64,000 bases of DNA from Lobosporangium transversale (Eukaryota). Below, one piece after another: positions 9,603 through 46,852 of the stretch. Both the position numbers and the translations under genes were made by a program. The notes beneath the pieces are model-generated. The model made no database searches. It saw only the letters and a list, made by a program, of their open reading frames with translations, and was not told where the DNA came from. The stretch spans positions 1,178,001 through 1,242,000 of the forward strand of contig NW_019028982.1 in NCBI RefSeq assembly GCF_002105155.1, written 5' to 3'. How positions within the stretch are numbered: the stretch's first letter is position 1; every line of letters starts with the position of its first letter.

Positions 9603-12600
9603 TCATTGACGCAGATGGTGAGTTGTAAATATCCGCAAACATTGCTCCAGCTCCTCTTTACGCAGAGGTTTACTGATGTAGTCATTCATGCCTGCTGCAA
9701 TACACTTTTCTCGATCACCCGGCATCACACATGCTGTCATCGCAATGATGTAAGGTCGATCCGATGTACCACCAGATAAATGCTTGCGGATGTATACTGA
9801 AGCATCCAAGCCATTCATCTTGGGCATCCATATATCCATGAATATGAGATCATAGGGGACGAAATGCTTCTGACCATCATTACTGTCAGCAACAGGATTA
9901 TCACCTGTCGCCCCGGAAGCCTCGGAGCCGGGATTAGCGCTGATGTCCAAGTGTGATAATGGCATTGCTGGTGATGGAATTGTCGTTGTTGCTTGTATGG
10001 CTGTTTGTTCTGTATCTGCAGGAGCCAAAGATAAAGACCTGTCTTCTGCGTCACCATCTGATAAGCCACTAATACCAGAATCCATGTTAGTTGTATCAGA
10101 TTGGTCCCCTCTTCTTTCCAGAAAGCGCATCTGAGCTGACTTCTTTTCGATCAGCTCAACGGCCTCTTGTCCATTGTTGGCCTCATCTGGCTTTACGCCC
10201 AGCCGCGCGAGCATCTTGGAGACTACCTTTAGGTTTACGGGGTTATCGTCCACTACCAGCACCCGAACCTTAGCCATCTTGCGCGCTGTCGAAGACAAGG
10301 CGGCTGCCGCAGCCGCCAACGATGGCGATGCGTATCCCGTAGAGCTAGGTGTATCTATTGAGGACCTGCCGCCAGCATTTCGTTTAGATGCGGCTCTGGC
10401 TTTTTGCAGTGACAATCTCTTAGCCATGGGAACCTCTATTCCTTCACCGAGACGAGACTGAGGTTCGGGCCGTGGCTGCTGGTACGGAAGCTTCATATCC
10501 GATCCCATCCCTGAGCCAGCTCTGGGCCTTACTTCTCGAAAGTTGGGTACACTCTGTTCTTTAGGTGGCATAATCGATATCATGGATTTCTCCGTTCCCA
10601 TCATCGACTTGACCAGCTTCTCCTCTGGCGGTACTTGTACCATATCTACAGTAGCAGGAGTAGGAACCAAACCAGACACAAATGCATTCTCATTTGCCGG
10701 CTCTTTTGTAATAGGAACAGGAGAAAGAGGTGATATGGACACTGGCACTGGTTGAATGGCGCTATTGAACAACGTCAATACAGAAGTAGAGTCGTCCATC
10801 GGAGCCAGCTCTTCTACATCCAGCTCCATATTCATTGGATCTTCTGTGAGCGCCTGCAGGACTTTAGAGTGTCGGATTGGCTTTGTAAAGTAAATTGGAG
10901 CAGCAAAAACGCCTTTCAGCCGAGCAGGACCTTGGACAGCAGAAATGTCTTGTGTTGGCGTAGTGGACTCGTTGTCGCTACTACTGAAATAACAAGCCTT
11001 GTTCAGAGATGCAGCAGGCGATGGAACAGCTGCGGAGAGATGGTCAATGCTGCTAATGCTCTGCTCGTAAAAAGTAGTCTGAGTACCGGGCGTCAACAAA
11101 TTACCGGCTCCAGCAGTGGTGGTAAATGTTGGTCTGATACCCAGTTGGTTCGAAGTCGAAGGCGGAGCCCTGTCCAGTGTTAGGGACGACGTTGATGAGC
11201 CAGAATGATCTCTGTACTCTGGTGCATACGGGTTAGAGAAACAACCCTGGCTGTCATGCTGGGGACGACAAATAACTCCAGGCTCTTCATTTGTATCGCT
11301 ATTCGAGATTCGTTCGCCACTCCACCGAGATGCATCTCGACGAGCATGGCCATGATATGAGGTTGATGCCGACGCAGCAGCCTTGATGTCTCTCATATCT
11401 TTGAAGATAATTACAGGGACAATAGAAGGTGGAGCAAGACTCTCTTCAATGTCAAGATATTGGGATGATCCTCTGGCTGCAGTTGCTCGGATGGCATCCA
11501 AAAGATTCTCGGGTTTCTTGTAGAGGAATCCATTAAGATCTGTTTCTAGAATCAAAGCCTCCATCTTATCTTGGATCCTCTCCTGGACACCAGATTCAGA
11601 GCTCTTTTCCAAGAACGGCATGATTTCATTACTCCTTAATATTTTGACACTGTGCATGTTCCAAGCATCTGTTCGCTTTTTCCAGGCCTTGCGACCCATA
11701 TCAGAATCATCTACCACCACGAGTTTCATATCTGTTAACTTTGAGAGCTTAAACTGCTCTTCGTACGTCTGACATCCAACGGGACTATCAAGGATAATGT
11801 TAAAGTAGAAGGTGGAGCCGACATTGGGAACGCTGTCGACCCACATACTGCCGCCCATCATCTCGCTGAGCCGTTTACTAATTGCGAGACCCAGACCTGT
11901 GCCACCGTATTCTCGTGTTGTACTCTCATCGACTTGCGAAAAACTTGTGAATAGCTTATCAAATCGATCCGATGGGATGCCGACACCTGTATCCTTCACA
12001 GAAAAAAGCAATTTGACAGGCTTGGTTTGAAGGGGAGTAAGTGAGCCCGAGCCGGTACGACCTATTACTGGTGTGCCATCCGACAGGACCACACCATCAG
12101 CTCTATTGGCTGCTGGGAGCTCTGTAGATAATGGGGATACCGAGTCGCCATTAACAGCTTGATCGGTTTGATTGATGGATCCCTGAGAAGACAGTAATTG
12201 GCTCATTGTAGGATTTGCGAGCGTATTGACTCTCGGCACTTTTAGAGAATCGGATGTCAGAGTCGGTCTACTGATATCCCCAAGACGGGTAGGCCGAGGA
12301 GGCTCCGTCTTGACGTCTTGTTCATCTTCAAACCTGACTTCAGGCAGGTTCTCAACCGTGACAGTGACATGGATCGACCCCTCCTTTGTGAACTTGACTG
12401 CATTGCTCATCAGGTTCAACAGAATTTGGCGGATACGTGTGACATCGCCCATAATCTCCACAGGGCACTTTCTGTCAATCTCGTACACCAGGCTCAGTTT
12501 CTTTGCTATAGCTTGCGAGCTTATCAGGTTCACAGCAGATTCCATGACGAAGCTCAAGTCCAAGAGTCGCCTTTCCAGCTTCAATTTACCGGACTCGATC

Positions 12601-13352
12601 TTTGAAAAATCCAGGATATCGTCAATAACCGTCATCAGTTGGTTCCCGGAGGACTCTATCGTTTCTGCACATTCTGCCAATTCGGGATTTAACTTGGAGT
12701 CCAACAATATCCTAGACATGCCAATGACGGCGTTCATCGGGGTGCTGTTTCACCATATAAAAACAATGGTATACAAGAGATTAGAGGACTAAGGTACTCG
12801 ATCTCCACCAAAAGGTATAAAAAAGAAGGGAAGTGACATACCGAATTTCATGTGACATGTTGGCCAAAAAGTTTGACTTCGCGGTTGCTGCTGCTTCAGC
12901 GCCTTCTTTGGCTTTTTGAAGATCATCCAATAGCCGATGCGTCCTGGCACGCTCCTCCTCTAACTCCATGGTCCTCATTTGAAGGTTCCTAGTCCTGTCA
13001 TGTACGAGTTCCTCCATGTCGTTACCATACTTCTCGAGCATTGCTGCCATACTACTGATAAAGTCACTGGATTTATGGGGGTTGATATCATTGATTCTGG
13101 CGAGGATTGCGGTAAAATGGGGCCGACTCGTGGGTTCCTTTGATATACACAAGCGAATCAACGCATTGATTTGCTCAATATTTTCACGATCTTCCGCAGA
13201 ATATATTGAATTCTCAGTGTTGATCAGAGTGGGTCGAAGATCGTGCCCCTTTACAAGCTTGATTATGCCAAGGATGTCCGCCTGTTCTTGATCATGGTAA
13301 GGCAGGCGGCGTGTTAAAATTTCGTTGAATATGATTCCAGCACTGGGGGATG

Positions 13353-13385
<33 letters not shown>

Positions 13386-16300
13386 AGCTGCAACTACTTA
13401 TTAATAATAACCAAGGTAAAAGCGTGAGATTAGAGCTTCGAAATACAACTTGCCTGTAAATATCACCCCTCTGACTGCCGATGACTTCATAGTCACCATT
13501 CTTTCCCAAATTAAGACATTCAGGAGCAGTCCACAATAAAGGGATCATATCAACTGTATTTTCGAAACCGCTATGCTCGGGACCATCTGAGATACCACTG
13601 GCGTAGGAGGCGCTAGCATGTGGAGTACTAGAGCTATAATAACTACCGCTGGTATGCCTAGGCCTGCTTCCTAAAGACAACGAGGCTCCAGAGGCTCCAG
13701 CCGCCTCTTCCTCTCCAACTAATCTATTTCCGTTGAAGTCTCCGTTCTCCACATAATTACGCATATTCTTACTTCTCCGAAAGGGCTCGTGGTTGAGGTC
13801 AAAGATCCCCTGCTGCTGGGGGTTTGAATGATCAGACTGCGATGGATGAGATACATCAGATGGCCACACACGGCCAGCGCTTTTCTGCTTTAGCATCTTT
13901 TCACTCAGAAGGCTGGGCTGTGGAGTAGGCGTGTCCAATTGCGACCTGTAGAGTCCATCCAACCCATAGCCTGCGATCTTAAGCTCCCAGCGAGATGAGA
14001 TCAAACAGTTCATGCTTGTTAAACGCCCATGAAACATAATCTTGGACATATGAAGGAACTCCATACCCCGACACAGATCCTGCATGAATGAAAACTTGAA
14101 GAGCCAAGTGAATTTATGGTCCATATTTGCCAATACAGCTGCCAATGTACCTTTTGGAACAAGTTCTGTTGTCGTGGAAAATTTTGAAAAACATTTTCAA
14201 TTTCCAAGTAAAATAAAAATAAAGCGTATTACGCCTAATAATTTACAGAAGTGCACAATGAAGCTGCCATACCTGTGACAATGCAGATGTTGGGTTGTGC
14301 AAGGCAGACGCCAATAAACTCGACAAGCTTAGGATGACGAAGTTCTCGCATATTGAAGATCTCTTTACGAAGCTCTGAGGTCACTGTGACTTTCTTGGAT
14401 CCAATCTTCTTGATATAAACAGGCATACTGCGCCAGGTACCAACTGCAGATGACCCACGGCTCATGACTAAGGAAAATTGGCTGGGGTTGTTTCCTTGAA
14501 GAGACTTTGTATTCCTACTGGAAAAATTGAGGAACCATTCCAATACGGTTAGATTGTGCTTTTTTTCTTTTTCTTTCTATGGTTATGACTTCCCCGTAGC
14601 CCGAACTTACGATGAGCCAGAGGGTGCGCTAAAGCTAGCAACTTGGTCAGAACTAATATGGCTCCCTGCACTATCATTCCCCAGATCATTACTTAGTCGC
14701 GGACCAAACTCAGCGGATGACCGTCTTTTGAGATAAGCTGCAAGCGTAGACGCATTACCAACTGTGACGCCAGGAAGGATAATACCATTCATATTATTAG
14801 GGCCACTCATGCGTGGAAGGCCATAAGTTCTATCTGTCTCACCTCCGATGCCACTATAAAGCAACTTTGCCAGATCCAGTTGCCAAGAGTCATCATTAAG
14901 TTTCTTCCCGTTGATGTATTTTTTCCTTTTATACCAGCAGAAGACCAGCAACGCCGCTAGTACCAAGCCCGACAAGAGAGGAATAAGGATAGCCATCAAA
15001 AGTTTAGACAGACTCACTATTGCAAGATTGTTGTGATCAAAGAGGTCGATTAAAAAAAAAAAAAAAAAAAAAAAAAAGTCAGAACAACTAATCTTTAACA
15101 AGAGACATCAATACTCTATACTCTGAAATCCATATCTGATAGCCTTACTCCCTGAACTGCTTCCACAGTTGCCATCGCTGCAGTCAACACAGCTTACTTG
15201 ACCAACACCTGTAGTGGTCAGACCAGAAGGGCAAGAGGAGCATTTGAGTGCATCCGAATAGTTGCTATATGTTCCGGCAGAACAGCGTGTACACATGGAC
15301 CGAACTTTTACATGACCATCAGGATCCACGCAGAGCACTGTATCTGTATCCTCACTTGAAAAGTCTGTGCTCGTATATGGTGACAAATTCATGGGGATCC
15401 CTTGAAAAGCACCCGCAGACCCTTCCATGCTCTCCGGAATGCTTCGACCGGACGAGTAATATGTACCGGGCTCACAAACGTAGTTTATGGGCACAGGTCC
15501 GGTAGCAAGGAACTGGTTAAAGACCTTGGCTCGATTAGGATACATCATTCTGATTGAAAGACTGAGAACTGAATGAAACCCCTGGATGTATTGCTGTGGA
15601 TTCAGGATGCCAGTGATATACTGATTATTTGCCAAAGAATGGATTGCCTTCGTAGATGTCCCCATCACGAATACTCCAGGAGAACTTGAATCCGGTGCTG
15701 CCTTGGAAAGCAAAGGTAACCCCTCCCTCAATGTAGCGCTCTCCGTCAGAGGTGATAAGCCAATAGAGGCCGCCGAACCACGAATCTTCTTAAGATTAGG
15801 GTAGATCTTGGCTACCACTTCATAAAGTGGTATGGATGTGCAGAGGATCGAGTCAAATGGTAGCGTGGCTTGTTCCGAAAAAGCATTGATAATGCGTTGC
15901 TCGTCCGGCGATAACGTAGACTCGTTATCCTGTCTTTTGTACCAGTGCTCATTATGAAATGCGGCGCGCTCCTGAATTTCGCTGCTGTTAAACACCAAGT
16001 CGCTGGCTTTCGCATCAATTTTCATCATCATGTCTTCCAACCTGCCAACTCTCGCCTCGCCGTATATTGTGGCTAGGAACTTGTGTAGCTGGATACAATG
16101 TCCTTCTTGCCACCATGGCCCATTTAACTCTATGAGACACAAAGGTATGCCAAAGCCGTTTTTCAGGATCTGAGATGAGAATGTCGAGCCAATGGCGGTA
16201 TCGCTAGGCCCGTGGAAAACAACTCTACTCGGTAAAGGCACCCAATTGTCCACTGTGCCTATACCCATGATAGGCATGTTCGGTCCCATCACGGTGTTGT

Positions 16301-18508
16301 TCAATAGCTCACTGTATTGCTCCTTATCAGCTAAGGACATGATGACGCCTTGAATGCCTTTATATGGGCCATACCGCGATTCAGCTAAATTACCAGTCGT
16401 CCCAGAACCAGCAGATAGTAGGGTATTCTGGACCCCTTCCAATTCCGGTACTGAAGTCGCTGAGATCGTGTTCCACCCAAACAATGTCGTCGCTTCGATA
16501 ATACCGCCCAAGGCCTCCTTCCAGCGTGTTTTCTCTAGTGAAATATTGCGGTTAAACACTACAGCTGTCTTGTTCTGCGCAATGAAGTCGAAGAGGTCTC
16601 CTGAATGATCTTGTGCATACTCAGCTTCGACATTGCTAGCGTCCAGCAGCGTTGGTCCCGTCCAAATTGTGTCTACCTGTAATCTTTGTTTCGATGAAAC
16701 CATAAGGAAAATTTCTAGAACAGGAATCGCTCCTTGAAGATACGGCGATTGGGAAGTGGCCGCAACAATGGTTCCTGATTTAACGTACTCTATCATATTC
16801 TCATTCAATTCGAATGTGCCTACCCATAACCCACCTGGCCTCCCAGGCACAGGATTGCCTGTTTTATTCAGCGAAATCTCCACAGCCAAGTCAACTGTGA
16901 GTGTTGACAGAGCGATAATTGAGTCAACGTTCGGATACTTTCCGAGATGACTCTTCACGGTTCGGAAGACTTGTTGACTATCGTTAGTGCGATTGACCAT
17001 TATAGTTCTATTAGAGAAAGAGTCGGTAAGATTCAATCCCCGAGCCCTAAAAGCCTTGAGGACTCCTGAACAGCGGTCGGCGAACGTTTGCACAAAAGGC
17101 ACAGCGCCAAGACAAACAAAACTTCGCGCTCCTACGGCATGTTCAAAACAAGTGGTCAGTCAGCAACCACAATAGATTGTACTTCTTTTGTAAAGGAGTC
17201 AAGCCTATAAATCTAATAGGAATACCTTTGTCAAGTAGTGCGTTTCCGATCAATTCTCCAGCAGCGACATTGTTCTGTAAGACGGAGAGGAATCCTTGCT
17301 GTCTGGCAGATTCCAGGCCTATATTCATGACTACAATTGGAAGTCCTGGACGCTGTCTCTGGACATCAATGACCGCGGCTGCAATGTCGGAGTTGGGGAT
17401 AGTGACAATTAACCCATCAATAGGCTCCTCGGAGGCTTTTCTGATTCGACTAGCCATAGTGTCAGTGTCGAAGACGCCATTCAGTGTCGTCCGCTGCCAA
17501 TCCAGCTGAATATCGGTGATTTTCGCTGCATCCCAAGCACCTGCATGAACTCTGTCCCAAAACGGAGTAATACCTAGTTAAAAATAATGGTCAAGGGTAT
17601 GATATAAAATGGTCCCTGAGCATGCAGTTATTGACAGGAGGCTTACAAGGATTGATAAAAGGATTGGAGTACAAACCATGATCGATTCCCAGCACTCGAA
17701 TAGGCCCATCTTTATATGATTCTGACTTCCGACCATTGAATCCAGTCATAGTTTTGGGATCGCAAAGAGGGAGATTGGAGATATTCATGGCTTTTGAATT
17801 GGACGTCAAGGCATTGTACTGGTACCCAGATGGAGAATCCATAGACCGCCGCCCAAGGCCATGATGTTGAAAAAATGGACGTATCCCTAATCCCGGTGGC
17901 TCCTGAACAGGGATCGAAGCGACAGCATGGAGCATTGAAAGTGGCAATAAAAACACCAGTAGCCAAGTGAGTATGGATAACAATGAAGAAGACTGAGAAG
18001 GTCTTTTCGAGCTTTTCCGAGTGAATTTAGGCGATCTGGAGAATGTGAGATATAACCTTTTCAAATACATAGCGCTATTAGCTCCTAAAAGCTTTCTATG
18101 GCTACTCTTTGGGTACTGCCGGCTTTGGCGAGTCTGGATCGAGTCCTTTGTATTGTTGATCTGGGATCTAAGATGGGGATGACACTGTTCAGACCGAGGT
18201 GTGCGAACCATAGCTACTGATTTCCGAGTTAAGGAGGATCTGAAGAATAAGTGCCGACTCCTTATTCGTATATGACTACTCTTGTACTTTGAGTGGGCTA
18301 TTCTGTCGGGGGTTGGCATCTGACTGAGACTGGTAGAGAAAACAGATACCAGCACAGAGTATAAAGATGGAGGATTGTGATGCCACTGACTGACGTTCAC
18401 AGACGACAGTGGTACTGCAATTTGGAAGGAGACACAGTGTCTGAACTGGGACTCACGTGGCCCCAGGTTATGAGTGATAGCTGTTGTGTGATGGACAAGG
18501 GATTCCAT
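9603..18508 (-). CDS. Transmembrane hybrid histidine kinase: tandem periplasmic-binding-protein ectodomains, Cys-rich repeat, TM, receptor-guanylyl-cyclase-like pseudokinase, coiled coil, HisKA, HATPase, receiver; ~2721 aa
   Basis: Exons 18508..17677, 17573..17226, 17131..15149, 15016..14611, 14514..14273, 14165..13454, 13342..12842, 12744..9603 (8166 nt, in frame; first donor could alternatively be at 17646 and the start could be later). H-box [17 protein letters not shown]-box [15 protein letters not shown]1 DTGVGI, G2 GGTGLGL, receiver VLVVDDN...IFMDIWMP...IIAMTA...[31 protein letters not shown] followed by KRKK. Confidence 0.9.
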
Positions 18509-19574
18509 ATGAATGATTGTTGTGAATCTGAAAATTAGGAGGCATGCAGGTGGTTAGTTGGACGATCAATGTTAATCCAAAAGTAGTTTCATTTTTGCGT
18601 TTGTGGCACGGTGAGATGTAAATGTGAATTCAAGCATATGCAGGATATGTCATCATAAAAAAAGGGGGAGTTTGAGCAGAAGAATCTTTTTAATATTACA
18701 TCGCATCGTTTCGACTACGGTGCGGACTGACGTTTTTTTTAAAAAAAAAAGTTCATTGAGCAACTGAACTAAAATGCTCCTTCCATGTGCGATATCTCCA
18801 CAATAGTCTAGTCTACGACATAGTTCATACTGTACTACATTTGTCGTGTACAGCATGCCAAGAGAATGAAAGAAAAAAAAAAGACAGGTACCATTTCATA
18901 AACATGGCCCCTGCAGCATGCTTAGCCTGCTTTCCACCAAATCGACAATCAGAAAAAAAAAATGCTGTGTTCCAAATACATCCTAAGCACACACCCAACT
19001 AGATCTCAGCGAGGAAGAGAAGACAAAGTGGAGTTGTTGAACGAGCAGGAAACCGCCTTCAAGAGCAGGATTTCCTCCATATTAACTTTTTCAACAAGTC
19101 TTTCTATACCCCTTTCAGGGAACTTTCAACTTTTTCATTAAAAGATTCCGAATTTAATCAAGCTCCGTCTCTGCCAGGTTAATTACATTCATAACCAATC
19201 TCACGACAACATCGATAGAGGAAGGATTATACAAGCGAGAAAAAAAAAAAAAAAAAAAAAAAAAGCGCAAGTCGGTAAAATTGTGTTTTTTAGAAGCGAC
19301 AGGATATTGCTGTTGGTGATGTGCATACGAAAAGAGGGAGGGGAATGACGATGTCCATGGTGCATGGATAGGGACAGGCGATGCTGTTCATGATAATGAG
19401 GTAGGGGCAACAAAATTGATAGATAAACGCGGCCTTACCAGCAGTGCTGATCGGGTTATCAAGAAACGCTATTTTCAAGGTTTATCGTAACCTGCCAATA
19501 GTTTGTTGTAGAACTTGAGCAGGATAGGTGTGTTACGCTGGCTCCAGAATTATAACCACATGAGAATGAGTTTT

Positions 19575-19760
19575 AATGAATGTGTTAATGAATGAATGAA
19601 TTAATGAATGAATAAATGAGTGAATGAATGAGTGAATGAATGAGTGAATGAATGAGTGAATGAATGAGTGAATGAATGAATGAATGAATGAATGAATGAA
19701 TGTTTTAATGTGTTTTAATGAAGGTATGAAGGTATAAAGATATGAAGGTATGAAGGTGTG
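19575..19760. repeat. (GAAT/GAGT)n microsatellite followed by (ATGAAGGT)n repeats
   Basis: Directly visible tandem arrays in the intergenic region between the divergent histidine kinase and CHO2 genes. Confidence 0.9.
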
Positions 19761-21376: not shown

Positions 21377-22525
21377 ATGGATTCTGAGCTCCGTAACAGG
21401 AAGGTCTCAACAACCCAGCTGGAGGTCAATGGCGTGTCCTCATCCAACAAGGTGCACGCTACCGCAGCAGTCCGATCAGGAACTCCTTCCATGACTGAAT
21501 CACCCGATCTCCATAATTCGCATGGCAGAGATTCGACCGATTCAGCTACTTCGGGTCAATCTCTATCAGAGTCCCAGAAGTTGAGCCTAGCCAGGGAACA
21601 GGAAGAGACTGCGTTTGGCAAAACTCCCAATGGCACAAGTATGAATCTCCAGTTGATCGACAATTTACTGTTGTTTACACCCACATTCAAAGATTGTTGT
21701 TCATTGTTGCTGATCCTCTCCTTTTTACAAATGCTATCGAACTACAGTTTTTCGCGTGCCTGTTACAAAGGACATGCTGAGCGAGATCTTTGATATGAGC
21801 AAGAAAAAGTCTGCTTTTGATCTCATCACCCTTGCCGTTATGGGTGTTCAGATTCTCATGTTCTTCACTCTACCCACATACATTAAACGTTGGCTGTTCC
21901 TGGCCCTCTTCTTATTCTGGAGAGCAGGATACAATGCGGGTTTGGGCTACTTGTTGAAACTTCAGAGCGAACGTAGAGCGTTGGTTGCTTGGGCTAAGGA
22001 ACAAGGCATTTTTGACAAAAAGCGTGGTGGTGGCTGGTATGAATGGCTCAAGCAAGAGCTCAGCTGCAAGATGGACTCGGACTACGATTTTGATGTAAAT
22101 AAATCTTCATGGTTGCTTGATCATTTGATCATTTATTCGAGGATGCATTCTCTTGAACTGATTTTTTTCACTCCATTTTGAACCCAATAGGCCGTACCTA
22201 TCGAATTCAACACATGGCTATTATACCGACAGCTTGTAGACCTAATCCTCATGAATGATTTCACTACCTATGTCTGCTTCGCTCTATCTTGGCTCACCTT
22301 CCCTGCCGGATCTGGCTTTTTTGGCCACGTATTGCGCTGGACCGCTGGGTTCATTCTTGTGTTCTTCAATATTTGGGTCAAGTTGGACGCACATCGTGTA
22401 GTCAAGGACTTTGCTTGGTGTAAGTTTACACCCTCTCCCTTCAATTTGCGGCCACGACAGTAACAGTAACGACAGTAGCATATGAAGCATCATGTATAAC
22501 CTTCTTCCTACGCTAATTGTGTATG

Positions 22526-22558
<33 letters not shown>

Positions 22559-25132
22559 TTGGGGTGACTTTTTCTTTCTGATTGAACAATCATTAACGTT
22601 TGATGGAGTCTTTGAGATGGCACCCCACCCAATGTACTCGGTTGGATATGCTGGTTACTACGGTATCTCCCTCATGATGGCCTCATACATGGTGCTCTTT
22701 GTTTCACTCTTTGCCCATGCCGCCCAATTTGCGTTCCTCACTTTGGTCGAGAACCCTCGTAAGTGTTTATTTTATGCTACCCTGTCTGATTAGCTTGGCA
22801 ATTTTGCAAAAAAAAAAAAAAAAAAAAAAAAAGTGCTCATATTTACTCTTGTCCTCACTTAGACATTGATAAGACCTACAATCCTCCTCAGATCCCTAAA
22901 AAGCGTGTCCCCACTACCACTGAGGCGTCATTGGGACTATCTACTGGTCAGAGCTCTGTTGTTGCCTCCCCTTCCGACCATGTTGCACCCATTGATCAAG
23001 CAGCAACACTTGTCCCTTGCGGATCGAAGGACATGTACAACACCTACTTTAGACGGGATCTCATTGTTTTCAAGAACTTTGATATTTTCCGTTCAAACGA
23101 TATTTTCGTGGCGCTTATTATCTTTTATGCTACCATTGTGCCGCTGCTGATTTCCAACACAGGACCTCGCTTCTTGACATTCATGATGGTTATTCAGGCC
23201 TTGATGTGGCGTGTTTTCCATTCCTATGTACTTGGTGCTGTCTTGAAGAGGCAGAGTGACAGCAAATTTTATACGAAGCATTTTATCAAGCACGGAGGCA
23301 CAGTACAGGATGCATTCCAAAGCTGGAAAAGCATTTTCAACTTGTCCAACTCGATGACATACGCTACCTTTTTCTTGGCTGCTTTCAAAATGTATTCAAT
23401 CCCGGACGATTGGACCTATGGTACCGTCCTACTTCGTCATGTCCTTGGGCTTGCATTGATTGCTCTCCATATTTGGGCCTCAGTCTCTGTCTTTGAGGTA
23501 CTGGGTGACTTTGGTTGGTTTTATGGTGATTTCTTTCTGGAAGACTCGTCCAGCGGTCTGTTCTACACTGGGATCTATAGGTAATGTTTTGTCCCTATTT
23601 AATGTTACGAAGCAACAGGCATGTGCACTCACAATATTACGTTAAAACTCAGCATCCATCCTACATCTGATCTATATAATCAACTATGAATAGATTTGTC
23701 AACAACCCTGAGAAAGTCATGGGCCATGCTGCATTCTGGGGTATGACCTTGATTTGCAATAGCTGGTCTATTTTTATCTTGGCCATGTTCTCCCAGGTCT
23801 CTAACTTCTTGTTCTTACACTATGTTGAGTCCCCTCACATGCGTAAGATTTACGGAAATAAGATTCGTAAAGATGCTGGTGTTGTCAAGACTGTAAAAGC
23901 TGCTAAAATCTTCCCCAAGAAAATGAAGGATGAAGTCAGCAAGATCCGCGAGAAGCTGGAGGAGACACCCGAAATTAAGGATGTACTTCAGAAGACACGG
24001 GTTGTCTCTGAGAAGGCACAAGAGATTGTCGAAGGTACACGTGATGACTTGAACGGCTTGGTCCAAAGTGTTGCTCCTCGTATACAAGAGATGGTCTCCA
24101 ATTCCAAGGCTCTACTTGAGAGCTCCAGAGAAAAATTAATTGTAGCGTAAGTCTTCAAACACGGCACCGAACTGAGGTTTAAATATGAATGATCAGCCGC
24201 TATTCTTTATTAACGCTAACTTTTATAATAGTCGAACTTGGGATGACATTGGAGTGTATGACAAGTCACAATATTCAGTAAAGATCATCAATGACGTTGC
24301 TCCGGCCGTCAATGCAGAGGGCATTCCCACCTACAGCCTTGGCCAAAAACTGACTGTAGAGTGGACAGCGCCTTTGAACCATGGTACTAAGGATTGGATC
24401 GGTATTTACAAGGTCTCAAGCAACAACTCCAAGGAAGTGACGTCTGTGGCTTCCAAGGGCCGCTATCTGTATGTTAACCGTGATTTGGGACTTGGAGAGG
24501 CCGAAGAAGGCGTGAATGATCATGCTGGCAAAGGCGATGGTGAGATTATTGAAGAGGAGGTTGTTTGGATTGAAGAAAAGGAGCTGTGTCGTGGCCGTGT
24601 TGTTTTCCTGGGCGACAAACTTCCATGGTTCCAAGGCACTTTCGAATTCAGATACCATCACCATGGACGATACAACGTTATGGCTTACACAACACCATTT
24701 GCCATTGCATGTAAGCAGGGTTAACTTCATATCCTTATGCTCATCCAAAAAAAAAAAAAAAAAAAAAAAAAAAACTTACAATTCGTTTTTTTATATCTTC
24801 TTAATATTGCAGTGGAAAACTACCAGGACGAGAAGGAGCACACTGTGGCCTCGATTAGCCATGCGCTCTTGCCATATGTCCAACGTTGTTTCAATTCTGA
24901 TGAAGAAACAATGCCAACCTCCGTGGATGAGCGCTTCATCATGATTAACGAATCAATCGCACAAAGGATTGTCAGGGGTATTCAGCTCATGTATGGAATC
25001 GAATTTACTTGGGAAGTAGTCGCAGTCGATATGAGCTGTCTTCATCTTGCTCTCCGTATCTTCACAGCTCGTCGAGCTCTGGCACCTTTCTCCTCTATTG
25101 ATTCGCATATTTCACTGTCGGATGAGTCTTAG
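21377..25132 (+). CDS. CHO2: Phosphatidylethanolamine N-methyltransferase, ~1002 aa
   Basis: Exons 21377..21638, 21748..22094, 22191..22419, 22558..22758, 22863..23580, 23694..24146, 24232..24710, 24813..25132 (3009 nt). Motifs [89 protein letters not shown]...FEFRYHH. Confidence 0.95.
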
Positions 25133-28963: not shown

Positions 28964-28981
28964 TGGTGATCTACGCAGGGG
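28964..28981 (+). other. tRNA primer-binding site
   Basis: TGGTGATCTACGCAGGGG, 7 nt after the 5' LTR. Its complement reads as a tRNA 3' end (T-stem CCTGC, acceptor strand GTAGATC, discriminator A, CCA). The tRNA isotype is not determined. Confidence 0.75.
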
Positions 28982-28993
28982 GTGGCAGCTACA

Positions 28994-31900
28994 ATGTCTT
29001 CCAATTTATCGATTCTTCTTACCATGATCCCGAAGTGGCCGTCGGCAGAGGCTGAGGGTCTAACCGCCGCGACATGGATCAGCGATTTTGGAGGTGTTAT
29101 CGAAGGAGAAACCCTGAGCAACAAGTTGATGTTCGTCGAGAGGCAGGCGACAGGCAAGATCCAACGCTGGATCAGGCGCTGGAGGATGACAAACAAGACG
29201 AATGGTGCCTGGAGCCAGTTCGTCAGCGATTTCATCATGGAGGCCTCTACCCCTAGAAGCCAGGATGTCACCCTGGACGAGTTGCATTCTATTAAGCAAG
29301 GAGAAGATGAGACGACAGCCAACTATGTACAACGAATGAAACTTACCATGGAACTCCTCGACCCAGAGTCTGGTTGCGACGCACAGCCGTACAAGATCCC
29401 AACAGCCACCGAGCGTCTACTGGCGTACAGATTTTGCAAGGGTTTGAGGCAAGACCATCCTTTCAAGGTCAAGAACAAAGAAGCGCCTGCGACCTTGAAG
29501 GAAACCTTCGAATCAGTGACACAATTGGTTGAAGGAAATCGTTGGGGCATTGACACCACTGAGAGCCGTGTCATAGCTCGCAGCAACGCTGAGCATGCTG
29601 CACCAATCGAGACGAATGTTCTGCTTGGATCGACCCTAGTGCCGAGGACGCACTACTCTGGCTTCCTAGCGGACTTCAAAGACGACAAAGAGAAAGTTAA
29701 TCAATTAAGCGTAGACGAATTAACAGACATGTTCGGAGCCTGGACCCTTGCTGCCGAGGAGCGAACTCCGGAGGCGCGAATCGCTCAGACTATCTCAAGA
29801 ATGAGCCCGGCTGTAGCGAGGCGAGTGTTTGGTTCCTCTGAATTGGCCAAGCATATTAGAGTGGAGGCTAGACCTAATGCCGTGCTCCAACCCGCCGAAG
29901 TTCGAAGTCAGCAGGCTATCCCTATGGCCCGTAGAACCTGCCATAAATGTAATCAAGAGGGGCACCTCTTGTCGTTCTGCCCATTGGTGGAATGCTTCCG
30001 ATGTGGCGAGCGAGGCCATACTTCGAAGGTTTGCACTAAGGAACAAGGAAGCCCCGCCACAGGCGCCAATAGCGTCCCATTGGCCACTCAAACTAACTCC
30101 TCGCTAAGAGTGCAAAGTTTAGAAATCTCCGCCACTAATGTCGCCCAATCATTTATCACGACTAAGCCACAGCGATTAAATTCGACAGGTGCCCAGCGAC
30201 GTCGCAGTGAGAGGACAGGCACTCCTGCAGGTCCATCGTCTCAACGAAGAGAGGAAACGAGAGGCACTACTCCACCTGTCCGAGGAATGCAGTGGGAGGC
30301 TGAGGCATCCACTAGTAGTGCGCAACCTTCTGGGGACCCCCACTTCCAGACAGTGACTTTTGATGACAGAGCGGTCGACGGGCGAGAGAATAATGTTGCA
30401 GAAGCTCCAAATGCGACGCCAAAGCGTACCAGGAAGCGCGTCATTCCTGATCCAGTGTTCGTTGATGCGGTCGAAGGATTGAATTTTGATTTGGCCACTC
30501 ACTCCAAGTACCGTGGAAAGATGGCAGTGCAACTCAAGGCAGCTGTTACCGAGGCCTGGGCCCGCCATGCCCCTCCAAGAAGAAGCAAGCCTAAGAGGAG
30601 TCAGTCAGCAATAGCTATGGCCAGGAACGTTCAAGGTGGCAAGGGTGATGTCACGACCGTCACCGCCTTGGGACGAGACTTCAACAACGCCGTTATTGAT
30701 CCAGGCAATGACCATACTATGATGGGCCTACATGTGGCAAACGCACTCGGACTGAAGTTAGAGCCTGCTACTCGTGCGGTGCTATTAGCCCATGGGTCCT
30801 TCCAGAAGCTTGCGGGCCGCACAAGACCTATCGATATTTATGTGTCCGGGATCCCCTTGAGAATGTCGATGGGAGTGATCGACTGTAAGGGCACATATGA
30901 CTTCCTCCTTGGCGATGACTGGCTCAAGGCGCTGAAAGCCAAGGCTGATTGGAGCAACGGTATCGTGTACTACGTGGAGAGTGAGGGAAGGACTATCACC
31001 CTTGGTGGCGGTCTAAATGTTCGCGCCTCAACCCCTCAGCCTACGACATCAACGTACTTGTCTGATGAGAGCGATGAGTATGATGATGAGTACGACGACT
31101 ATGAGGATGACGAATCAATCTACGAGACGGAAGAATCCGATGCTGATGCAGGGTACAGAGCCTTGAGAGTGAAGACAATAGAGGTTGGTGACCCGGATCT
31201 GCAGGCGATGACCGCAAGAGTGTTCTCTAGCAAGATACAGTGCGAGAATGACGATGCTCGCGTAAAAAGGCAGCCGTTCGCGGTTGACGGAGTCAACGTG
31301 GACATCAACCCAAATTTGTCCAATGAGCAATACGGACAGATTGTGGAGTTACTTGAAAAGAATAAGGACAGGCTGACTACCAACCTTGAGGACCTCGAAG
31401 TGACGTCTATTTTAGAACATGAGATCAACATTCAACCAGGCGCCAAGCCAGTGTACGTAGGATGGTGCAAACGGTACTCGCCGAAGGAGCTTGACTTCCT
31501 TAAGAAGAGTGTTGATGATGAGCTTAAGGCAGGAAAAATCATAGAGATGGAGAGCGAGTGGTGCGCGCCGCTGAGTCTTGCTCCTAAGAAAGACGGATCC
31601 TTGCGCAAGTGCGTCGCATACATAGGCCTAAATAAGGTTACCGAAAGGGAGAGCTGGCCACTGCCAAACATCGAGGAAATACTTGACAACTTAGGCGGAT
31701 TCGAGTACTACAGTAGCCTGGACGGATTTCAAGGTTATTACGTGATTGGCATCAAAAAAGAGCATGTCAAGTATCTTGGCTTCCGTACGCCTTTTGGGAC
31801 GTTTGCATACAAGGTAATGCCATTTGGGCTCAAGAACGCGCCACATACCTTCAGTCGCTTCGTTAGAAAAGTGTACTCAGACCTTATCGGAAGAGTGCTT

Positions 31901-34537
31901 GAGGCGTACATGGACGATGTGTGCGTGCGCACGATGACCTGGGGAGAGCATTTGAGAGCCCTCGATCATACGTTTGCGGCAGCTCGCGCAGGAGGAGTCA
32001 AGTACAAGACTAGTAAGCTCCATTTCGGGTATGACAAGGTGAAGTTTACTGGCCACGTGGTCGGCAAAGATGGAATTGAGGTCATGCCAGACAAAGTTGA
32101 CAAGGTCAAGAATTTCACCCCATTACGTAGCAAGGAAGATGTACGTGCATTCTTGGGCTTGACGGGCTACTATCGAAGGTTCGTCGAAAGCTACGCTCAG
32201 ATTGCAGAGCCGCTGACGAGGCTCCTCAAGAAAGGTGCAAGCTTCACCATGGGTCCTGAACAGGTGGCCGCAGTAAAGGGTCTCAAAGCCAAGTTAATTC
32301 AAGCTCCGGTACTTAAGGCTCCAGATTTCGAGAAGGATTGGGTGGTCTCGTGTGACGCCTGCAAATACGCTATGGGCGCAGTGCTAGAACAAGAAGATGA
32401 GGAGGGTAAGTTGAGACCGGTCTACTTTTACTCGAAGACCTTTCAAGGAGCCGAACGCAACTACTCTACCTTTGAGCAAGAGTGCCTCGCCGTTGTCATA
32501 GCCGTCAAGAAGTTTCGGCCTTACATCCTGGGTAGGTCCGTTGTCGTTTACACAGACCATGCGCCACTCAAATGGTTGTTTTCCAAGACTGATCTGACTG
32601 GTCGACCTGCGCGGTGGCAGATGATTCTGTCGGAATTCGAGCTGGTCATTAAGACCAAACCAGGTACGAAGAACGGCAATGCAGACGGGATGAGTCGCAT
32701 TATGTCGGAAGGAATAGCCACGGATGACATCGATGACGAGGTGCCAGAGTGTCTGAGCCGAAGGGCAGAATCCACAGGAGAAAAGTGGCTGGCGAGCCAA
32801 TGGTACGCGAACTTCTACATGTACCTAGCCGAGATGAGACTGGAGTTAGAAGACAAAGTTGAAATGAGGAGGATCAAGAGACAGGCATACAGGTTTCGAC
32901 TGACGAAGGAAGGTGACCTACTGTATAGAGATGCCGACAACAGAGAGAAGAGGTGCGTAGTTGAGGATGAAGTCGAAGGTGTGCTGAAGGAGGCACACGA
33001 CAAGGGCGGTCACTATGGAGCAGAGTCTACCCTAGCAACAGTTCGTGACGTGTGTTGGTGGCCAACGATGAGACGGGATGTATTCCACTGGGTCAAGTCT
33101 TGCGGCCGTTGCCAGCAATTTGGAAGTCGAGTGAAACATAACAGGTTGCATCCTACGGTCTCCGAGTTCCCATTTGAAGTTCTCTTCGTTGACTTGATTG
33201 AGAACTTAGTCGAAACGCCTAGGGGGATGACCACCATAGTCGTCTTCACAGATTCCTTCACCAAGTGGACTGAAGCACATGCAGTGGCCAACAAAGGCGC
33301 GCAAGGCGTCCTAGCTGTTCTATTTATGAAGATTATCTGTCGGTTCGGGCTCCCTGTTATGATTAGATCGGATGGAGGCCCCGCATTTCGTAACGAATTC
33401 AAGACTTTCTGTGACCTCTGGGGGATCAAGCACGTCACTGGTTCGACAAGGCATCCGCAAAGTCAGGGACAGGTCGAGGCGACAAATAAGCTTATCGAGG
33501 AGCGACTGAGGAGAGTACTGCCAGCTGGATCTAAGGATTGGGATGCATTCCTACCGAAAGCAGTATTCGACGTGAATTGTCGAGTCGTTAGGAGCACAGG
33601 AGTGTCGCCAATGGAAGCACTTATGGGCTACACAGGACAGTCAGCGTTACGGCGACTGTTCGCGGACGACAAGTTCCTCGTTTCAGCAGAGGCACCGGAA
33701 GAGAACGATGTAGTCCTAGAAGAAAGCATGGCGAGATTTATCGTAAGAAGAGAGGGAATCCGTGAGTATGCATACTCATGCAAGCTTAATGCCAATGACA
33801 GGATGAAACGTTACTATGATCGACGTGTTCGCCCACAATCGTTCGAAGTAGGATCAAGGGTTTACATGTTCAATTTGGATTTCGTCACAGGCTTTGGACG
33901 CAAGCTGGAGCCGCGTTGGTTAGGTCCATTTGAAGTAGTCTGGGCGAATGAAAAGGGATCATATGGGATCAAGACGGGTCGAACGCATTATGGCACAAAG
34001 GATGGGGTAGAAACAATTAATGGAGACTTCCTCAAGCTCGCAACTCAAAGGCAACGATTATGGGAAGATGATTTTATTGAGAACCTACAGAGAGCTACTG
34101 AGAAGAATCCCCACTACGCCGACACCGAACAACCTCTCGCGCCAGATCAATTACACCAGCCAAGTCTGGGTCGGGGGCGGGAGGACACAGCAAACGAAGG
34201 CACTCCAATCCAATCTCCACATCCCTTGTCGCCAAGGACAGGTCAAGCTCAATCTCGTGACGCTCCTCAGGCGCAAGTTGCACCTTCCGTGAACGAAGCC
34301 TCTCGCGAAGACGCGACTGGTCAGCCAAGCCTCTGGAGAATGCCACCTCGCCGTGAAGAAGATACTTCGCCCGTACGCGTTTCTCAATTGGCTCGTCTAT
34401 GTCTTGAAAGGCCTCAGCTGACCGCTTATTTAGCTCTCGAGCGGGGGGGGGAACTGTCTGGGACTGAGGAGATTCTGGAGAAGACTTCTCCGCTGCAAAT
34501 GGCGAAACAGAGGAAGGGCCAACCTCGTGGTCAGTAA
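28994..34537 (+). CDS. Single-frame Gag-Pol polyprotein, 1847 aa
   Basis: Two CCHC knuckles (CHKCNQEGHLLSFC, CFRCGERGHTSKVC); protease AVIDPGN; RT KVMPFGLKNAP and YMDD; RNase H CDAC...YSTFEQECLAV...YTDH; integrase HDKGGH...CGRC, VDLI/SDGG/QVEATN and the GPF motif KLEPRWLGPF. No chromodomain seen. Confidence 0.95.
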   Translation: MSSNLSILLTMIPKWPSAEAEGLTAATWISDFGGVIEGETLSNKLMFVERQATGKIQRWIRRWRMTNKTNGAWSQFVSDFIMEASTPRSQDVTLDELHSIKQGEDETTANYVQRMKLTMELLDPESGCDAQPYKIPTATERLLAYRFCKGLRQDHPFKVKNKEAPATLKETFESVTQLVEGNRWGIDTTESRVIARSNAEHAAPIETNVLLGSTLVPRTHYSGFLADFKDDKEKVNQLSVDELTDMFGAWTLAAEERTPEARIAQTISRMSPAVARRVFGSSELAKHIRVEARPNAVLQPAEVRSQQAIPMARRTCHKCNQEGHLLSFCPLVECFRCGERGHTSKVCTKEQGSPATGANSVPLATQTNSSLRVQSLEISATNVAQSFITTKPQRLNSTGAQRRRSERTGTPAGPSSQRREETRGTTPPVRGMQWEAEASTSSAQPSGDPHFQTVTFDDRAVDGRENNVAEAPNATPKRTRKRVIPDPVFVDAVEGLNFDLATHSKYRGKMAVQLKAAVTEAWARHAPPRRSKPKRSQSAIAMARNVQGGKGDVTTVTALGRDFNNAVIDPGNDHTMMGLHVANALGLKLEPATRAVLLAHGSFQKLAGRTRPIDIYVSGIPLRMSMGVIDCKGTYDFLLGDDWLKALKAKADWSNGIVYYVESEGRTITLGGGLNVRASTPQPTTSTYLSDESDEYDDEYDDYEDDESIYETEESDADAGYRALRVKTIEVGDPDLQAMTARVFSSKIQCENDDARVKRQPFAVDGVNVDINPNLSNEQYGQIVELLEKNKDRLTTNLEDLEVTSILEHEINIQPGAKPVYVGWCKRYSPKELDFLKKSVDDELKAGKIIEMESEWCAPLSLAPKKDGSLRKCVAYIGLNKVTERESWPLPNIEEILDNLGGFEYYSSLDGFQGYYVIGIKKEHVKYLGFRTPFGTFAYKVMPFGLKNAPHTFSRFVRKVYSDLIGRVLEAYMDDVCVRTMTWGEHLRALDHTFAAARAGGVKYKTSKLHFGYDKVKFTGHVVGKDGIEVMPDKVDKVKNFTPLRSKEDVRAFLGLTGYYRRFVESYAQIAEPLTRLLKKGASFTMGPEQVAAVKGLKAKLIQAPVLKAPDFEKDWVVSCDACKYAMGAVLEQEDEEGKLRPVYFYSKTFQGAERNYSTFEQECLAVVIAVKKFRPYILGRSVVVYTDHAPLKWLFSKTDLTGRPARWQMILSEFELVIKTKPGTKNGNADGMSRIMSEGIATDDIDDEVPECLSRRAESTGEKWLASQWYANFYMYLAEMRLELEDKVEMRRIKRQAYRFRLTKEGDLLYRDADNREKRCVVEDEVEGVLKEAHDKGGHYGAESTLATVRDVCWWPTMRRDVFHWVKSCGRCQQFGSRVKHNRLHPTVSEFPFEVLFVDLIENLVETPRGMTTIVVFTDSFTKWTEAHAVANKGAQGVLAVLFMKIICRFGLPVMIRSDGGPAFRNEFKTFCDLWGIKHVTGSTRHPQSQGQVEATNKLIEERLRRVLPAGSKDWDAFLPKAVFDVNCRVVRSTGVSPMEALMGYTGQSALRRLFADDKFLVSAEAPEENDVVLEESMARFIVRREGIREYAYSCKLNANDRMKRYYDRRVRPQSFEVGSRVYMFNLDFVTGFGRKLEPRWLGPFEVVWANEKGSYGIKTGRTHYGTKDGVETINGDFLKLATQRQRLWEDDFIENLQRATEKNPHYADTEQPLAPDQLHQPSLGRGREDTANEGTPIQSPHPLSPRTGQAQSRDAPQAQVAPSVNEASREDATGQPSLWRMPPRREEDTSPVRVSQLARLCLERPQLTAYLALERGGELSGTEEILEKTSPLQMAKQRKGQPRGQ

Positions 34538-45985: not shown

Positions 45986-46852
45986 TTAGGCAGTCTTTTC
46001 TGCAGGTGTGTTCATGTAACGAGGATCCTTCCATGGACCTGGTTCTCCCTTTTGACATCCTCCTTCGCCAGCGCATTCGCAAGTGCCTCCGATGGCCTTG
46101 GGGAGATTCTCAGCATCAATGTCCTCCAACAAAGTTGACTGATAATTGCTTCCTAAGATGACAATCTTCTTAACAGTAACCTCATCCAGCAAGGGCTTCA
46201 CCATACCCCAGACGGAAGTGAACATCATAGGGGCGTTGATGACGTACATCTTACCCATCATCTCAGGATAGTAGTTTTGGGCAATGGCGGAAGTGCGCTT
46301 GATAAATCCAAAAGCATTAGCGAACTGGCGAAGAGAGACACCCTTGAGATCAAGAATAGTGCAGCATTGCTCAATGTGGTGACCGGCACGCTTTGAGCAT
46401 GCAGGCATGCGGTCTGTGATCAGCTTCTCATAGGAGAGAACATGTTGCTTTGTCATGCGCTCTTCATCTGTCACCTTGAACAATGTCTTGATATCAATCA
46501 CACCAATATGCTCGATATAGATAGGACGACCCTTCTTGTCCACATTGTGGTAATAGCGGGGATAGCAGCTGCGGACGACCTCCTCCTCCTCAAAGACAAA
46601 TGTTTCCTTCAATTTATCCACACCAAGCTCCTTTCTCCAGTTTTCGCAGTCGGTGAACATCTTGTTGGTTGCCTCAATGTTGAACTTGCGGGCACGCAAG
46701 AAACGAAGAAGTAGGTGATCATCGTGGCGTTCAGGAACAAAAGTGCCCTGTGCAATAATCAACTTCTTGAACTCTTCCAGAGTAGCCTGCTGCTCTGGAG
46801 TCAAGTTTCCGAGACGACCGGGAAGAATTTCGTGGGTGGTAGGGGCGGACAT
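45986..46852 (-). CDS. SEC14: Sec14 phosphatidylinositol/phosphatidylcholine transfer protein, 288 aa
   Basis: PGRLGNLT, DDHLLLRFLRARKF, YPRYYHNVDKKGRPIYIE, QNYYPEMMGKMYVINAP, VKPLLDEVTVKKI, GPW. Predicted 5'-UTR intron 47101..46854. Confidence 0.95.
   Translation of the reverse strand: MSAPTTHEILPGRLGNLTPEQQATLEEFKKLIIAQGTFVPERHDDHLLLRFLRARKFNIEATNKMFTDCENWRKELGVDKLKETFVFEEEEVVRSCYPRYYHNVDKKGRPIYIEHIGVIDIKTLFKVTDEERMTKQHVLSYEKLITDRMPACSKRAGHHIEQCCTILDLKGVSLRQFANAFGFIKRTSAIAQNYYPEMMGKMYVINAPMMFTSVWGMVKPLLDEVTVKKIVILGSNYQSTLLEDIDAENLPKAIGGTCECAGEGGCQKGEPGPWKDPRYMNTPAEKTA

What the first reader, a model, noticed from the sequence alone, without database searches (positions are those of the whole stretch)
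15149..17700. Ectodomain built from two bacterial-type sugar-binding proteins plus a Cys-rich ephrin-receptor-like stalk
Seen: repeat 1 has [57 protein letters not shown] and WTGP. Repeat 2 is more diverged ([36 protein letters not shown]). These are followed by CEPGTY...[11 protein letters not shown]...CSSCPSG...SCVDC. Established: these motifs are typical of type-1 periplasmic sugar/inositol-binding subunits of bacterial ABC transporters, and CxxCxxGTY repeats are GCC2/GCC3 (ephrin-receptor-like) modules. Inference: a horizontally acquired solute-binding domain was duplicated and recruited as an extracellular sensor, possibly for sugars or polyols in soil or root exudate. The second copy may have lost binding.
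Basis: partly seen in the sequence, partly recalled or inferred. Interest (0 to 1): 0.7.

Follow-up and report, generated by a model that had tools for sequence, protein, structure and literature searches.

The report
Fungal inositol-type sensor kinase ectodomain
This is the outside part of a soil-fungus membrane histidine kinase, made of two bacterial-type sugar-binding folds on a cysteine-rich stalk; the first fold likely binds an inositol-like sugar alcohol, the second has lost those binding residues, and a similar pair also sits on algal and fungal G-protein-coupled receptors.

Summary
The region is the ectodomain of an 8-exon, 2576-aa single-pass hybrid histidine kinase (Mortierellaceae), spliced as one transcript. 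Order: signal segment, repeat 1, repeat 2, Cys stalk, TM, receptor-guanylyl-cyclase-type pseudokinase, signalling helix, HisKA/HATPase, receiver.

Both repeats are type-I sugar-binding folds, closest to the myo-inositol/rhizopine binders 4RU1 and MocB, not ANF. Repeat 1 keeps the predicted pocket. Repeat 2 lost it but is as conserved across orthologues (51% versus 52%).

The kinase is already catalogued as group XVI/MS-HKII (MeHHK11, matched by eye); I found no text naming its sensor.

Likely a cyclitol or polyol receptor; binding is untested.

The parts
9603..18070 (-). Whole gene, 8 exons (18070-17677, 17573-17226, 17131-15149, 15016-14611, 14517-14273, 14165-13454, 13342-12842, 12744-9603), 2576 aa; intron 6 is GC-AG. 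An in-frame ATG at 18508 may add 146 aa.
   Evidence: Open model. One 8433-nt spliced contig crosses all 7 introns: 6 listed as joints, the seventh seen as adjoining pieces. 2575 of 2576 residues identical to annotated P0032, which starts at the upstream ATG.
17912..17986 (-). Hydrophobic signal segment, followed by a dibasic site (likely cleaved)
   Evidence: Hydropathy peak 2.21; similar segments in P0004, P0006 and P0009; cleavage inferred
16614..17704 (-). Repeat 1: type-I solute-binding domain of the inositol/rhizopine subfamily, predicted pocket largely intact (H131, F136, W137, N215, Q231, R267, E355, Q375; C254/C268 pair)
   Evidence: Best PDB hit 4RU1, E 4.9e-17 versus 2e-9 for the next (orthologue P0004); NCBIfam rhizopine SBP E 2.9e-33; residue counts
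15483..16574 (-). Repeat 2: same fold and subfamily, sugar pocket replaced (N to G539, Q to P556, R to H592, D to G738, Q to P759); W451, C579/C593, YxQG and TGP kept
   Evidence: 51% mean identity to 20 full-length orthologues
15165..15476 (-). Cys-rich stalk, 9 conserved Cys, one Ephrin_rec_like (GCC2/GCC3) unit above cut-off
   Evidence: Pfam PF07699 E 1.7e-5; Cys conservation; low model confidence
14931..14999 (-). Single transmembrane helix followed by basic residues
   Evidence: Hydropathy peak 2.75
13075..14468 (-). Kinase-homology domain of receptor-guanylyl-cyclase type, predicted catalytically dead (HGRLTS at the HRD site, GYG at the DFG site)
   Evidence: Best PDB hit NPR-A, E 3e-15; motif residues conserved in 18-20 of 20 orthologues
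12895..13068 (-). Signalling helix / coiled coil collinear with NPR-A, running into HisKA instead of a cyclase
   Evidence: NPR-A E 3e-7, ungapped over 69 residues; 89% identity to orthologues
11877..12894 (-). HisKA (H1527) and HATPase_c with N, G1, F and G2 boxes
   Evidence: Pfam; His in 20 of 20 orthologues
9620..10265 (-). Receiver domain (DD, D2500, K2555)
   Evidence: Pfam Response_reg E 6e-22; D and K in 20 of 20 orthologues

Best explanation
The region is the extracellular part of a single-pass fungal hybrid histidine kinase (group XVI/MS-HKII by an eye match), in which repeat 1 likely clamps an inositol-like cyclitol or small polyol and repeat 2 is predicted to act as a non-sugar-binding structural relay. 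SHOWN: one spliced gene; both repeats have the type-I solute-binding fold of the 4RU1/MocB subfamily; repeat 1 keeps and repeat 2 lacks the subfamily's pocket residues; the inside is an NPR-A-like pseudokinase and signalling helix ahead of intact HisKA, HATPase and receiver motifs. INFERRED: ligand closes the two lobes of repeat 1; the movement passes through repeat 2, the stalk and the TM of a dimer; the pseudokinase and signalling helix switch the kinase, as they switch the cyclase in NPR-A; phosphate moves His to Asp and on to the fungal phosphotransfer cascade. The tandem is an old module, also used by class-C-type GPCRs, not an invention of this species. Odds: architecture about 0.97, repeat 1 binds a small sugar or polyol about 0.7, a cyclitol specifically about 0.45.
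For: Single transcript. Repeat 1: 4RU1 best by 8 orders of magnitude; 4RU1 is called a verified myo-inositol transporter in PMC10747050 (passage). The rhizopine SBP is the only solute-binding family among the 25 of 88 NCBIfam rows shown; rhizopines are inositol-derived and carried by MocB (PMC10107442 passages). Of 3 plasmid homologue neighbourhoods opened, one lies beside iolD and one beside Gfo/Idh/MocA and TIM-barrel genes; the third was unannotated and holds only a weak IolG match; genome locus L011 has an iolC gene beside it. Pocket columns in 24 orthologues versus 49 bacteria: N 24/48, R 24/48, D 24/47, Q 24/47, H 19 of 19 covered/45, W 20 of 21 covered/48. Repeat-1 cleft loops are more conserved than the rest (6 of 281 shifts as high). 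Repeat-2 fold. Pseudokinase and helix; role of the helix from PMC1592074 (passages). Precedent for a PBP-sensor kinase: BT1754 binds fructose (PMC3404733 passages; its structure is VIA row 37).
Against: No binding data. Identity of repeat 1 to bacteria is only 26%, and the MocB family cut-off is far from met (115 versus 420 bits). Pocket positions were assigned by alignment and from recalled ribose-binding-protein contacts; I did not see the 4RU1 coordinates. One bacterial pocket Asp (44 of 49) is T/S/N in the fungi. This species also has E355 (D in 24 of 24 orthologues) and N233 (E/D in 23 of 23 covered), so its ligand or affinity may differ. In the paralogue and in one Mucorales protein repeat 1 has lost several of these residues. 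Most of the other neighbours of bacterial homologues scanned were regulators or unrelated enzymes. The model is of moderate confidence (pTM 0.47).
Confidence: 0.5

Rival explanations
1. Repeat 1 binds a small carbohydrate other than a cyclitol (a monosaccharide or linear polyol); the rest works as in the best explanation.
For: Pocket changes D to T134 and G to S323 across the fungi; next PDB hits are glucose- and ribose-type binders; inositol binders often also take ribose or xylose (PMC10747050 passage).
Against: 4RU1 and the rhizopine family stand well above other sugar-binding proteins; the subfamily's Cys pair and QxPYLQG/TGP motifs are kept.
Confidence: 0.22
2. Repeat 2 has a re-wired pocket for a second, non-sugar ligand, which makes the receptor dual-input (compatible with the best explanation for repeat 1).
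For: Near-invariant R450, W451, N543, W544, W588, Q589, T679 and S680 map to cleft loops; 18 of 49 loop positions are invariant versus 50 of 233 elsewhere; W451, N543, Q589, T679 and S680 are also kept in the paralogue.
Against: Loop conservation is not above the shifted null (73 of 281 as high), and I set the loops after seeing the list of invariant residues. Many invariants are Gly or Pro.
Confidence: 0.2
3. Neither repeat binds a small molecule; the dimeric ectodomain binds a peptide or cell-wall polymer, or senses wall strain, as the ANF fold of NPR-A binds a peptide between protomers.
For: The inner scaffold is NPR-A-like; the paralogue has lost pocket residues in both repeats yet keeps the architecture.
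Against: Repeat 1 keeps the polar pocket set in all 24 orthologues and its cleft loops are selectively conserved.
Confidence: 0.13
4. Origin: a bacterial (for example actinobacterial) binding protein was captured by a fungal ancestor and duplicated there, independently of the algal receptors.
For: A tree with fungal repeat 1 held inside the mostly actinobacterial group is not rejected and scores 2.3 lnL higher (p-AU 0.56); per repeat, short SBP-sized proteins score as high as algal repeats (medians 100 versus 94 and 64 bits); repeat 1 plus repeat 2 as one clade is not rejected (p-AU 0.82 and 0.58).
Against: 68 of 90 long hits carry the same tandem, in diatoms, a green alga, Picozoa and a blastoclad fungus. 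The free quick tree puts a 99-support branch between the bacteria (plus the Ostreobium pair) and the other eukaryotic repeats, and joins fungal repeat 2 with the Sorochytrium second repeat at 96 (long branches, so weak). Placement among bacteria changed from tree to tree.
Confidence: 0.3
5. The region is a separate, secreted solute-binding protein, as in the public 743-aa annotation XP_021885235.
For: That annotation exists and is identical to the window over exon 3.
Against: A spliced contig joins 15149 to 15016 and runs through the kinase; 20 orthologues and P0032 are full length.
Confidence: 0.02

Closest known systems
Fungal hybrid histidine kinase group XVI / MS-HKII (M. elongata MeHHK11 and MeHHK12; Herivaux 2017 PMC5285503, Kabbara 2019 PMC6324907)
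   Same: MeHHK11's first ~400 residues share the N-terminal and repeat-1 motifs (read by eye); the labels at the end of that supplement page read S/TKr, H, A, R (order not reliable).
   Different: No function is given in the text read. No periplasmic-binding label in the main text or the text layer of the supplements; the kinase is not named as guanylyl-cyclase type in what I read. Figures and Defosse 2015 were not seen.
Bacterial myo-inositol binder ACEI_1806 (PDB 4RU1) and rhizopine binder MocB (NCBIfam NF052284)
   Same: Best sequence and structure matches; shared Cys pair, pocket set and QxPYxxG/TGP motifs.
   Different: 26% identity; below the family cut-off; doubled, intron-split, with 13 N-glycosylation sequons in the ectodomain, and fused to a kinase rather than serving an ABC transporter.
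Receptor guanylyl cyclase NPR-A / GC-C
   Same: Single TM, dead kinase-homology domain and signalling helix in the same order. PMC1592074 (2006) says this kinase-then-helix order occurs only in animal receptor cyclases (passage).
   Different: Output is a hybrid histidine kinase, not a cyclase; the ectodomain is a sugar-type tandem, not one ANF domain; the DYG Asp is lost.
Bacteroides hybrid two-component sensor BT1754
   Same: A type-I sugar-binding fold is the sensor of a membrane hybrid kinase and binds a monosaccharide directly.
   Different: No Cys stalk or pseudokinase described; DNA-binding AraC output; bacterial.
Class-C-type GPCRs with sugar-PBP N-termini (diatoms, Port 2013 PMC3727952)
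   Same: 23 of 34 long hits scanned join Peripla_BP_4 to 7tm_3; the paper notes three P. tricornutum GPCRs with ABC-sugar-PBP-like N-termini (passages).
   Different: Seven-helix output; across the tandem hits both repeats mostly keep the pocket (46 of 65 first and 57 of 65 second repeats have at least 5 of 6 residues). The passages read mention neither a tandem nor cyclitols. Gut-fungal GPCR sugar domains (PMC5168858) are type II, a different fold.

Membership tests
Fungal HHK group XVI / MS-HKII | HisKA, HATPase and receiver with His, Asp and Lys | tested here: met
   (20 of 20 orthologues)
Fungal HHK group XVI / MS-HKII | S/T-kinase-related domain before HisKA | tested here: met
   published labels
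Fungal HHK group XVI / MS-HKII | N-terminal sensor like MeHHK11 | tested here: met
   Motif match by eye to the first ~400 residues shown; not aligned by a tool
Fungal HHK group XVI / MS-HKII | H-box / kinase-core tree placement with MelonHK11 and MelonHK12 | not tested
   Published sequences are cut at about 400 letters in the held supplement
Type-I sugar SBP (Peripla_BP_4), repeat 1 | Pfam gathering score | tested here: met
   59-71 bits in 3 of 3 orthologues; window exons separately below cut-off
Type-I sugar SBP (Peripla_BP_4), repeat 2 | Pfam gathering score | tested here: not met
   No second stretch
Type-I sugar SBP (Peripla_BP_4), repeat 2 | Two-lobed type-I fold | tested here: met
Inositol/rhizopine SBP subfamily (4RU1, MocB) | Best match among solved and curated SBPs | tested here: met
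   repeat 1; repeat 2, 4RU1 second to 3ROT
Inositol/rhizopine SBP subfamily (4RU1, MocB) | NCBIfam NF052284 cut-off of 420 bits | tested here: not met
   115 bits; the two bacterial homologues scanned also miss it (168, 243)
Inositol/rhizopine SBP subfamily (4RU1, MocB) | Pocket residue set, repeat 1 | tested here: met
   H, F, W, N, Q, R, Q kept; D to T134 in fungi; E355 and N233 in this species; positions inferred from alignment
Inositol/rhizopine SBP subfamily (4RU1, MocB) | Pocket residue set, repeat 2 | tested here: not met
   N, Q, R, D and Q replaced; also in 6 of 6 fungal kinase second repeats aligned
Inositol/rhizopine SBP subfamily (4RU1, MocB) | Binds a cyclitol | not testable with these tools
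   Needs a binding assay
ANF receptor / Venus flytrap | Pfam ANF_receptor match | tested here: not met
   No hit at E up to 1 in the window exons or 3 orthologues
ANF receptor / Venus flytrap | Closest fold | tested here: inconclusive
   NMDA and taste receptor chains appear from rank 28 in Foldseek, below sugar/LacI chains
Receptor guanylyl cyclase | Kinase-homology domain plus signalling helix | tested here: met
Receptor guanylyl cyclase | Cyclase domain after the helix | tested here: not met
   HisKA follows directly; no cyclase hit
Ephrin_rec_like (GCC2/GCC3) | Pfam PF07699 cut-off | tested here: met
   25 versus 23.1 bits, one unit, in the window; 3 of 3 orthologues below

The most novel reading that the evidence does not exclude
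A tandem of inositol/rhizopine-type binding domains is an ancient eukaryotic cyclitol-sensing ectodomain, swapped between class-C-type GPCRs (diatoms, blastoclad fungi) and a guanylyl-cyclase-scaffold histidine kinase (Mucoromycota). Group XVI kinases would then be fungal receptors for plant- or rhizobium-derived inositols, and NPR-A-like chassis with a His kinase in place of the cyclase.
Probability: 0.25. Interest if true: 0.75.

Novelty: new variant of a known kind. Interest (0 to 1): 0.52.

Why it matters
Few fungal histidine kinases have a known ligand (own knowledge), and group XVI has no assigned function in the texts read. This gives it a short, testable ligand list and named pocket mutants. 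Mortierellaceae are widespread soil fungi; a cyclitol receptor would be a direct candidate for root or rhizosphere sensing. The inner half places a dead kinase and signalling helix, described in 2006 as specific to animal receptor cyclases, ahead of a histidine kinase, a natural output swap. The same sensor pair on many algal GPCRs suggests a candidate ligand class for those orphan receptors too.

Tried and rejected
Word-indexed homologue searches found only Mortierellaceae-type proteins (25 hits, 9, none). This first suggested a family-specific innovation; the full HMMER scan overturned it.

Donor trees gave shifting placements, and all AU tests were inconclusive. Call counts by phylum (28 of 251 genomes around G002, 13 of 251 around G001) do not name a donor.

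GC and GC3 of the ectodomain match the rest of the gene, so there is no compositional sign of transfer. With introns and fungal neighbours this also argues against contamination.

ANF-type chains are absent from the 50 VIA rows shown, which does not exclude them. The fold of the paralogue's repeat 2 was poor (pLDDT 46) and was not searched; its phmmer search of the PDB found nothing. Profile A4 included part of repeat 1, so one search is not a clean repeat-2 test.

No run on record as RNA was listed; run X1 is taken as RNA only because its contig is spliced, and the transcript start was not determined. No whole genome is held, so paralogues in this genome were not counted.

Earlier scan findings: none. 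Literature searches that found no description of this ectodomain. Defosse 2015 is not held, and the domain cartoons in the figures of the three kinase papers could not be seen and may label it.
Full report
Observation. They belong to a gene of 8 exons and 2576 codons from 18070 to 9603. One 8433-nt contig of run X1 covers 18400-9564 with all seven introns removed; it moved one acceptor in my model by 3 nt. A named public protein, XP_021885235 of Lobosporangium transversale, is identical over exon 3 but stops at intron 3, so that annotation is split. A second record, P0032, matches 2575 of 2576 residues and starts 146 codons upstream.

Anatomy. Signal segment, repeat 1 (aa 123-420), repeat 2 (434-797), nine-Cys stalk, one TM, kinase-homology domain, coiled coil, HisKA, HATPase, receiver. 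The kinase-like part is closest to the natriuretic peptide receptor NPR-A (E 3e-15), lacks the catalytic and Mg-binding Asp, and continues collinearly into the NPR-A signalling helix. His1527, Asp2500 and Lys2555 are present in 20 of 20 full-length orthologues.

Repeat 1. It passes Peripla_BP_4 in 3 of 3 orthologues scanned. Its best solved relative is 4RU1 (E 4.9e-17, next 2e-9), described as a myo-inositol binder (PMC10747050, one passage). Its best curated solute-binding family is the rhizopine SBP, at 115 bits against a cut-off of 420; rhizopines are inositol derivatives (PMC10107442, passages). Some bacterial homologues sit beside inositol catabolism genes (iolD in L008; iolC in L011); most other neighbours scanned were uninformative. 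The predicted pocket residues N215, R267, D355 and Q375 are present in 24 of 24 orthologues and 47-48 of 49 bacteria. Against a simple reading: one bacterial Asp is T/S/N in fungi, and this species has E355 and N233. Pocket positions come from alignment and recalled ribose-binding-protein contacts, not from coordinates.

Repeat 2. It has no Pfam hit, yet the same fold and subfamily: HHalign 95% to the 49 bacterial homologues, full type-I topology in the model, top VIA rows 3ROT (Z 13.6) and 4RU1 (Z 12.3), Atlas TM 0.62-0.72. Five pocket residues are replaced. It is not decaying: 51.3% identity to orthologues versus 51.8% for repeat 1. Whether it keeps a different pocket is open: cleft-loop conservation is not above the null (73 of 281 shifts) while that of repeat 1 is (6 of 281), and the loops were set after I had seen the invariant list.

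Distribution. Word-indexed searches gave only Mortierellaceae-type proteins. The full scan gave 763 hits; of the 145 new ones listed, 90 are at least 430 aa long and 68 of these carry two near-complete repeats. Of 34 long hits that I chose for Pfam, 23 are class-C-type GPCRs, 7 are fungal kinase-type proteins and 4 are other. Of 20 clusters looked up, named ones include Seminavis, Entomoneis, Thalassiosira, Ostreobium, Picozoa, Sorochytrium, Radiomyces, Hesseltinella and Mortierellaceae paralogues. Radiomyces has the whole architecture. A paralogue with the same layout lies in L055, and its repeats group with ours by position (96 and 100). Across the tandem hits both repeats usually keep the pocket (46 of 65 and 57 of 65); fungal second repeats do not.

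Origin. A bacterial-type domain is clear; when and how often it entered eukaryotes is not. A quick tree of 57 selected rows sets most eukaryotic repeats apart from bacteria (99) but is full of long branches, and holding fungal repeat 1 inside either bacterial group is not rejected (p-AU 0.32 and 0.56). A common origin of repeats 1 and 2 is not rejected either. Base composition shows nothing foreign.

Mechanism. Likely, a cyclitol or small polyol closes repeat 1; repeat 2, the stalk and the TM pass the movement across the membrane in a dimer; the dead kinase and signalling helix gate the histidine kinase; phosphate passes to the receiver and onward. The parts are shown; ligand, dimer geometry and direction of regulation are inferred. 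The relay role of the helix rests on PMC1592074 (passages), and BT1754 is the precedent for a PBP-fold sensor kinase (PMC3404733, passages).

What is known. The M. elongata counterpart is MeHHK11, group MS-HKII, matched by eye to the first ~400 residues in Text S1 of PMC5285503 (parts 1-2 of 4 of the text and supplement passages read). PMC6324907 renames it group XVI (section 11, passages and supplement part 3). Neither text names a periplasmic-binding domain in what I read, nor does PMC4965123 (passages and part 1 of 3). Figures were not visible and Defosse 2015 is not held, so an earlier label cannot be excluded. Diatom GPCRs with sugar-PBP-like N-termini were noted in PMC3727952 (passages); those of gut fungi are type II (PMC5168858, passages). 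Searches found no description of this ectodomain.

Verdict. Real, and a member of a catalogued kinase group, with a sensor and a guanylyl-cyclase-type relay that I did not find described. New variant of a known kind; interest 0.52.

Noticed in passing
window 13343-13453 (-): Intron 6 has a GC donor; annotation P0032 misses it and inserts 14 residues.
   Followed up: yes
window 18071-18508 (-): Open frame upstream of the signal segment, basic and Ser-rich; P0032, P0006 and MeHHK11 also have long N-terminal leaders, so the true start is uncertain.
   Followed up: partly
window about 10840-11730 (-): By eye, a degenerate receiver-like segment split by a long low-complexity insert between HATPase and the true receiver; no tool hit.
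   Followed up: no
window 15165-17770 (-): The ectodomain has 15 Cys, an odd number, including conserved C103 and C678; one may bridge protomers.
   Followed up: no
L055:174-7990 (+): Paralogue of MeHHK12 type with the same layout; its kinase motif is closer to NPR-A, and both repeats lack parts of the pocket.
   Followed up: partly
proteins P0121, P0153, P0135, P0066: The sugar-type repeats also combine with an ANF domain, a type-II SBP, or PA plus ephrin-like units in other long proteins.
   Followed up: no
window 28970-34537 (+): Open 1855-codon gag-pol of an LTR retrotransposon (gag, protease, RT, RNase H, integrase).
   Followed up: no
window 21377-25132 (+): Phospholipid methyltransferase gene (PEMT hit), divergent from the kinase gene.
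   Followed up: no
window 38768-42071 (-) and 45986-46924 (-): SPX-ankyrin GDE1-like gene and a Sec14 CRAL/TRIO gene; no link to the kinase shown.
   Followed up: no
window 19560-19710: Long tetranucleotide-type microsatellite upstream of the gene.
   Followed up: no
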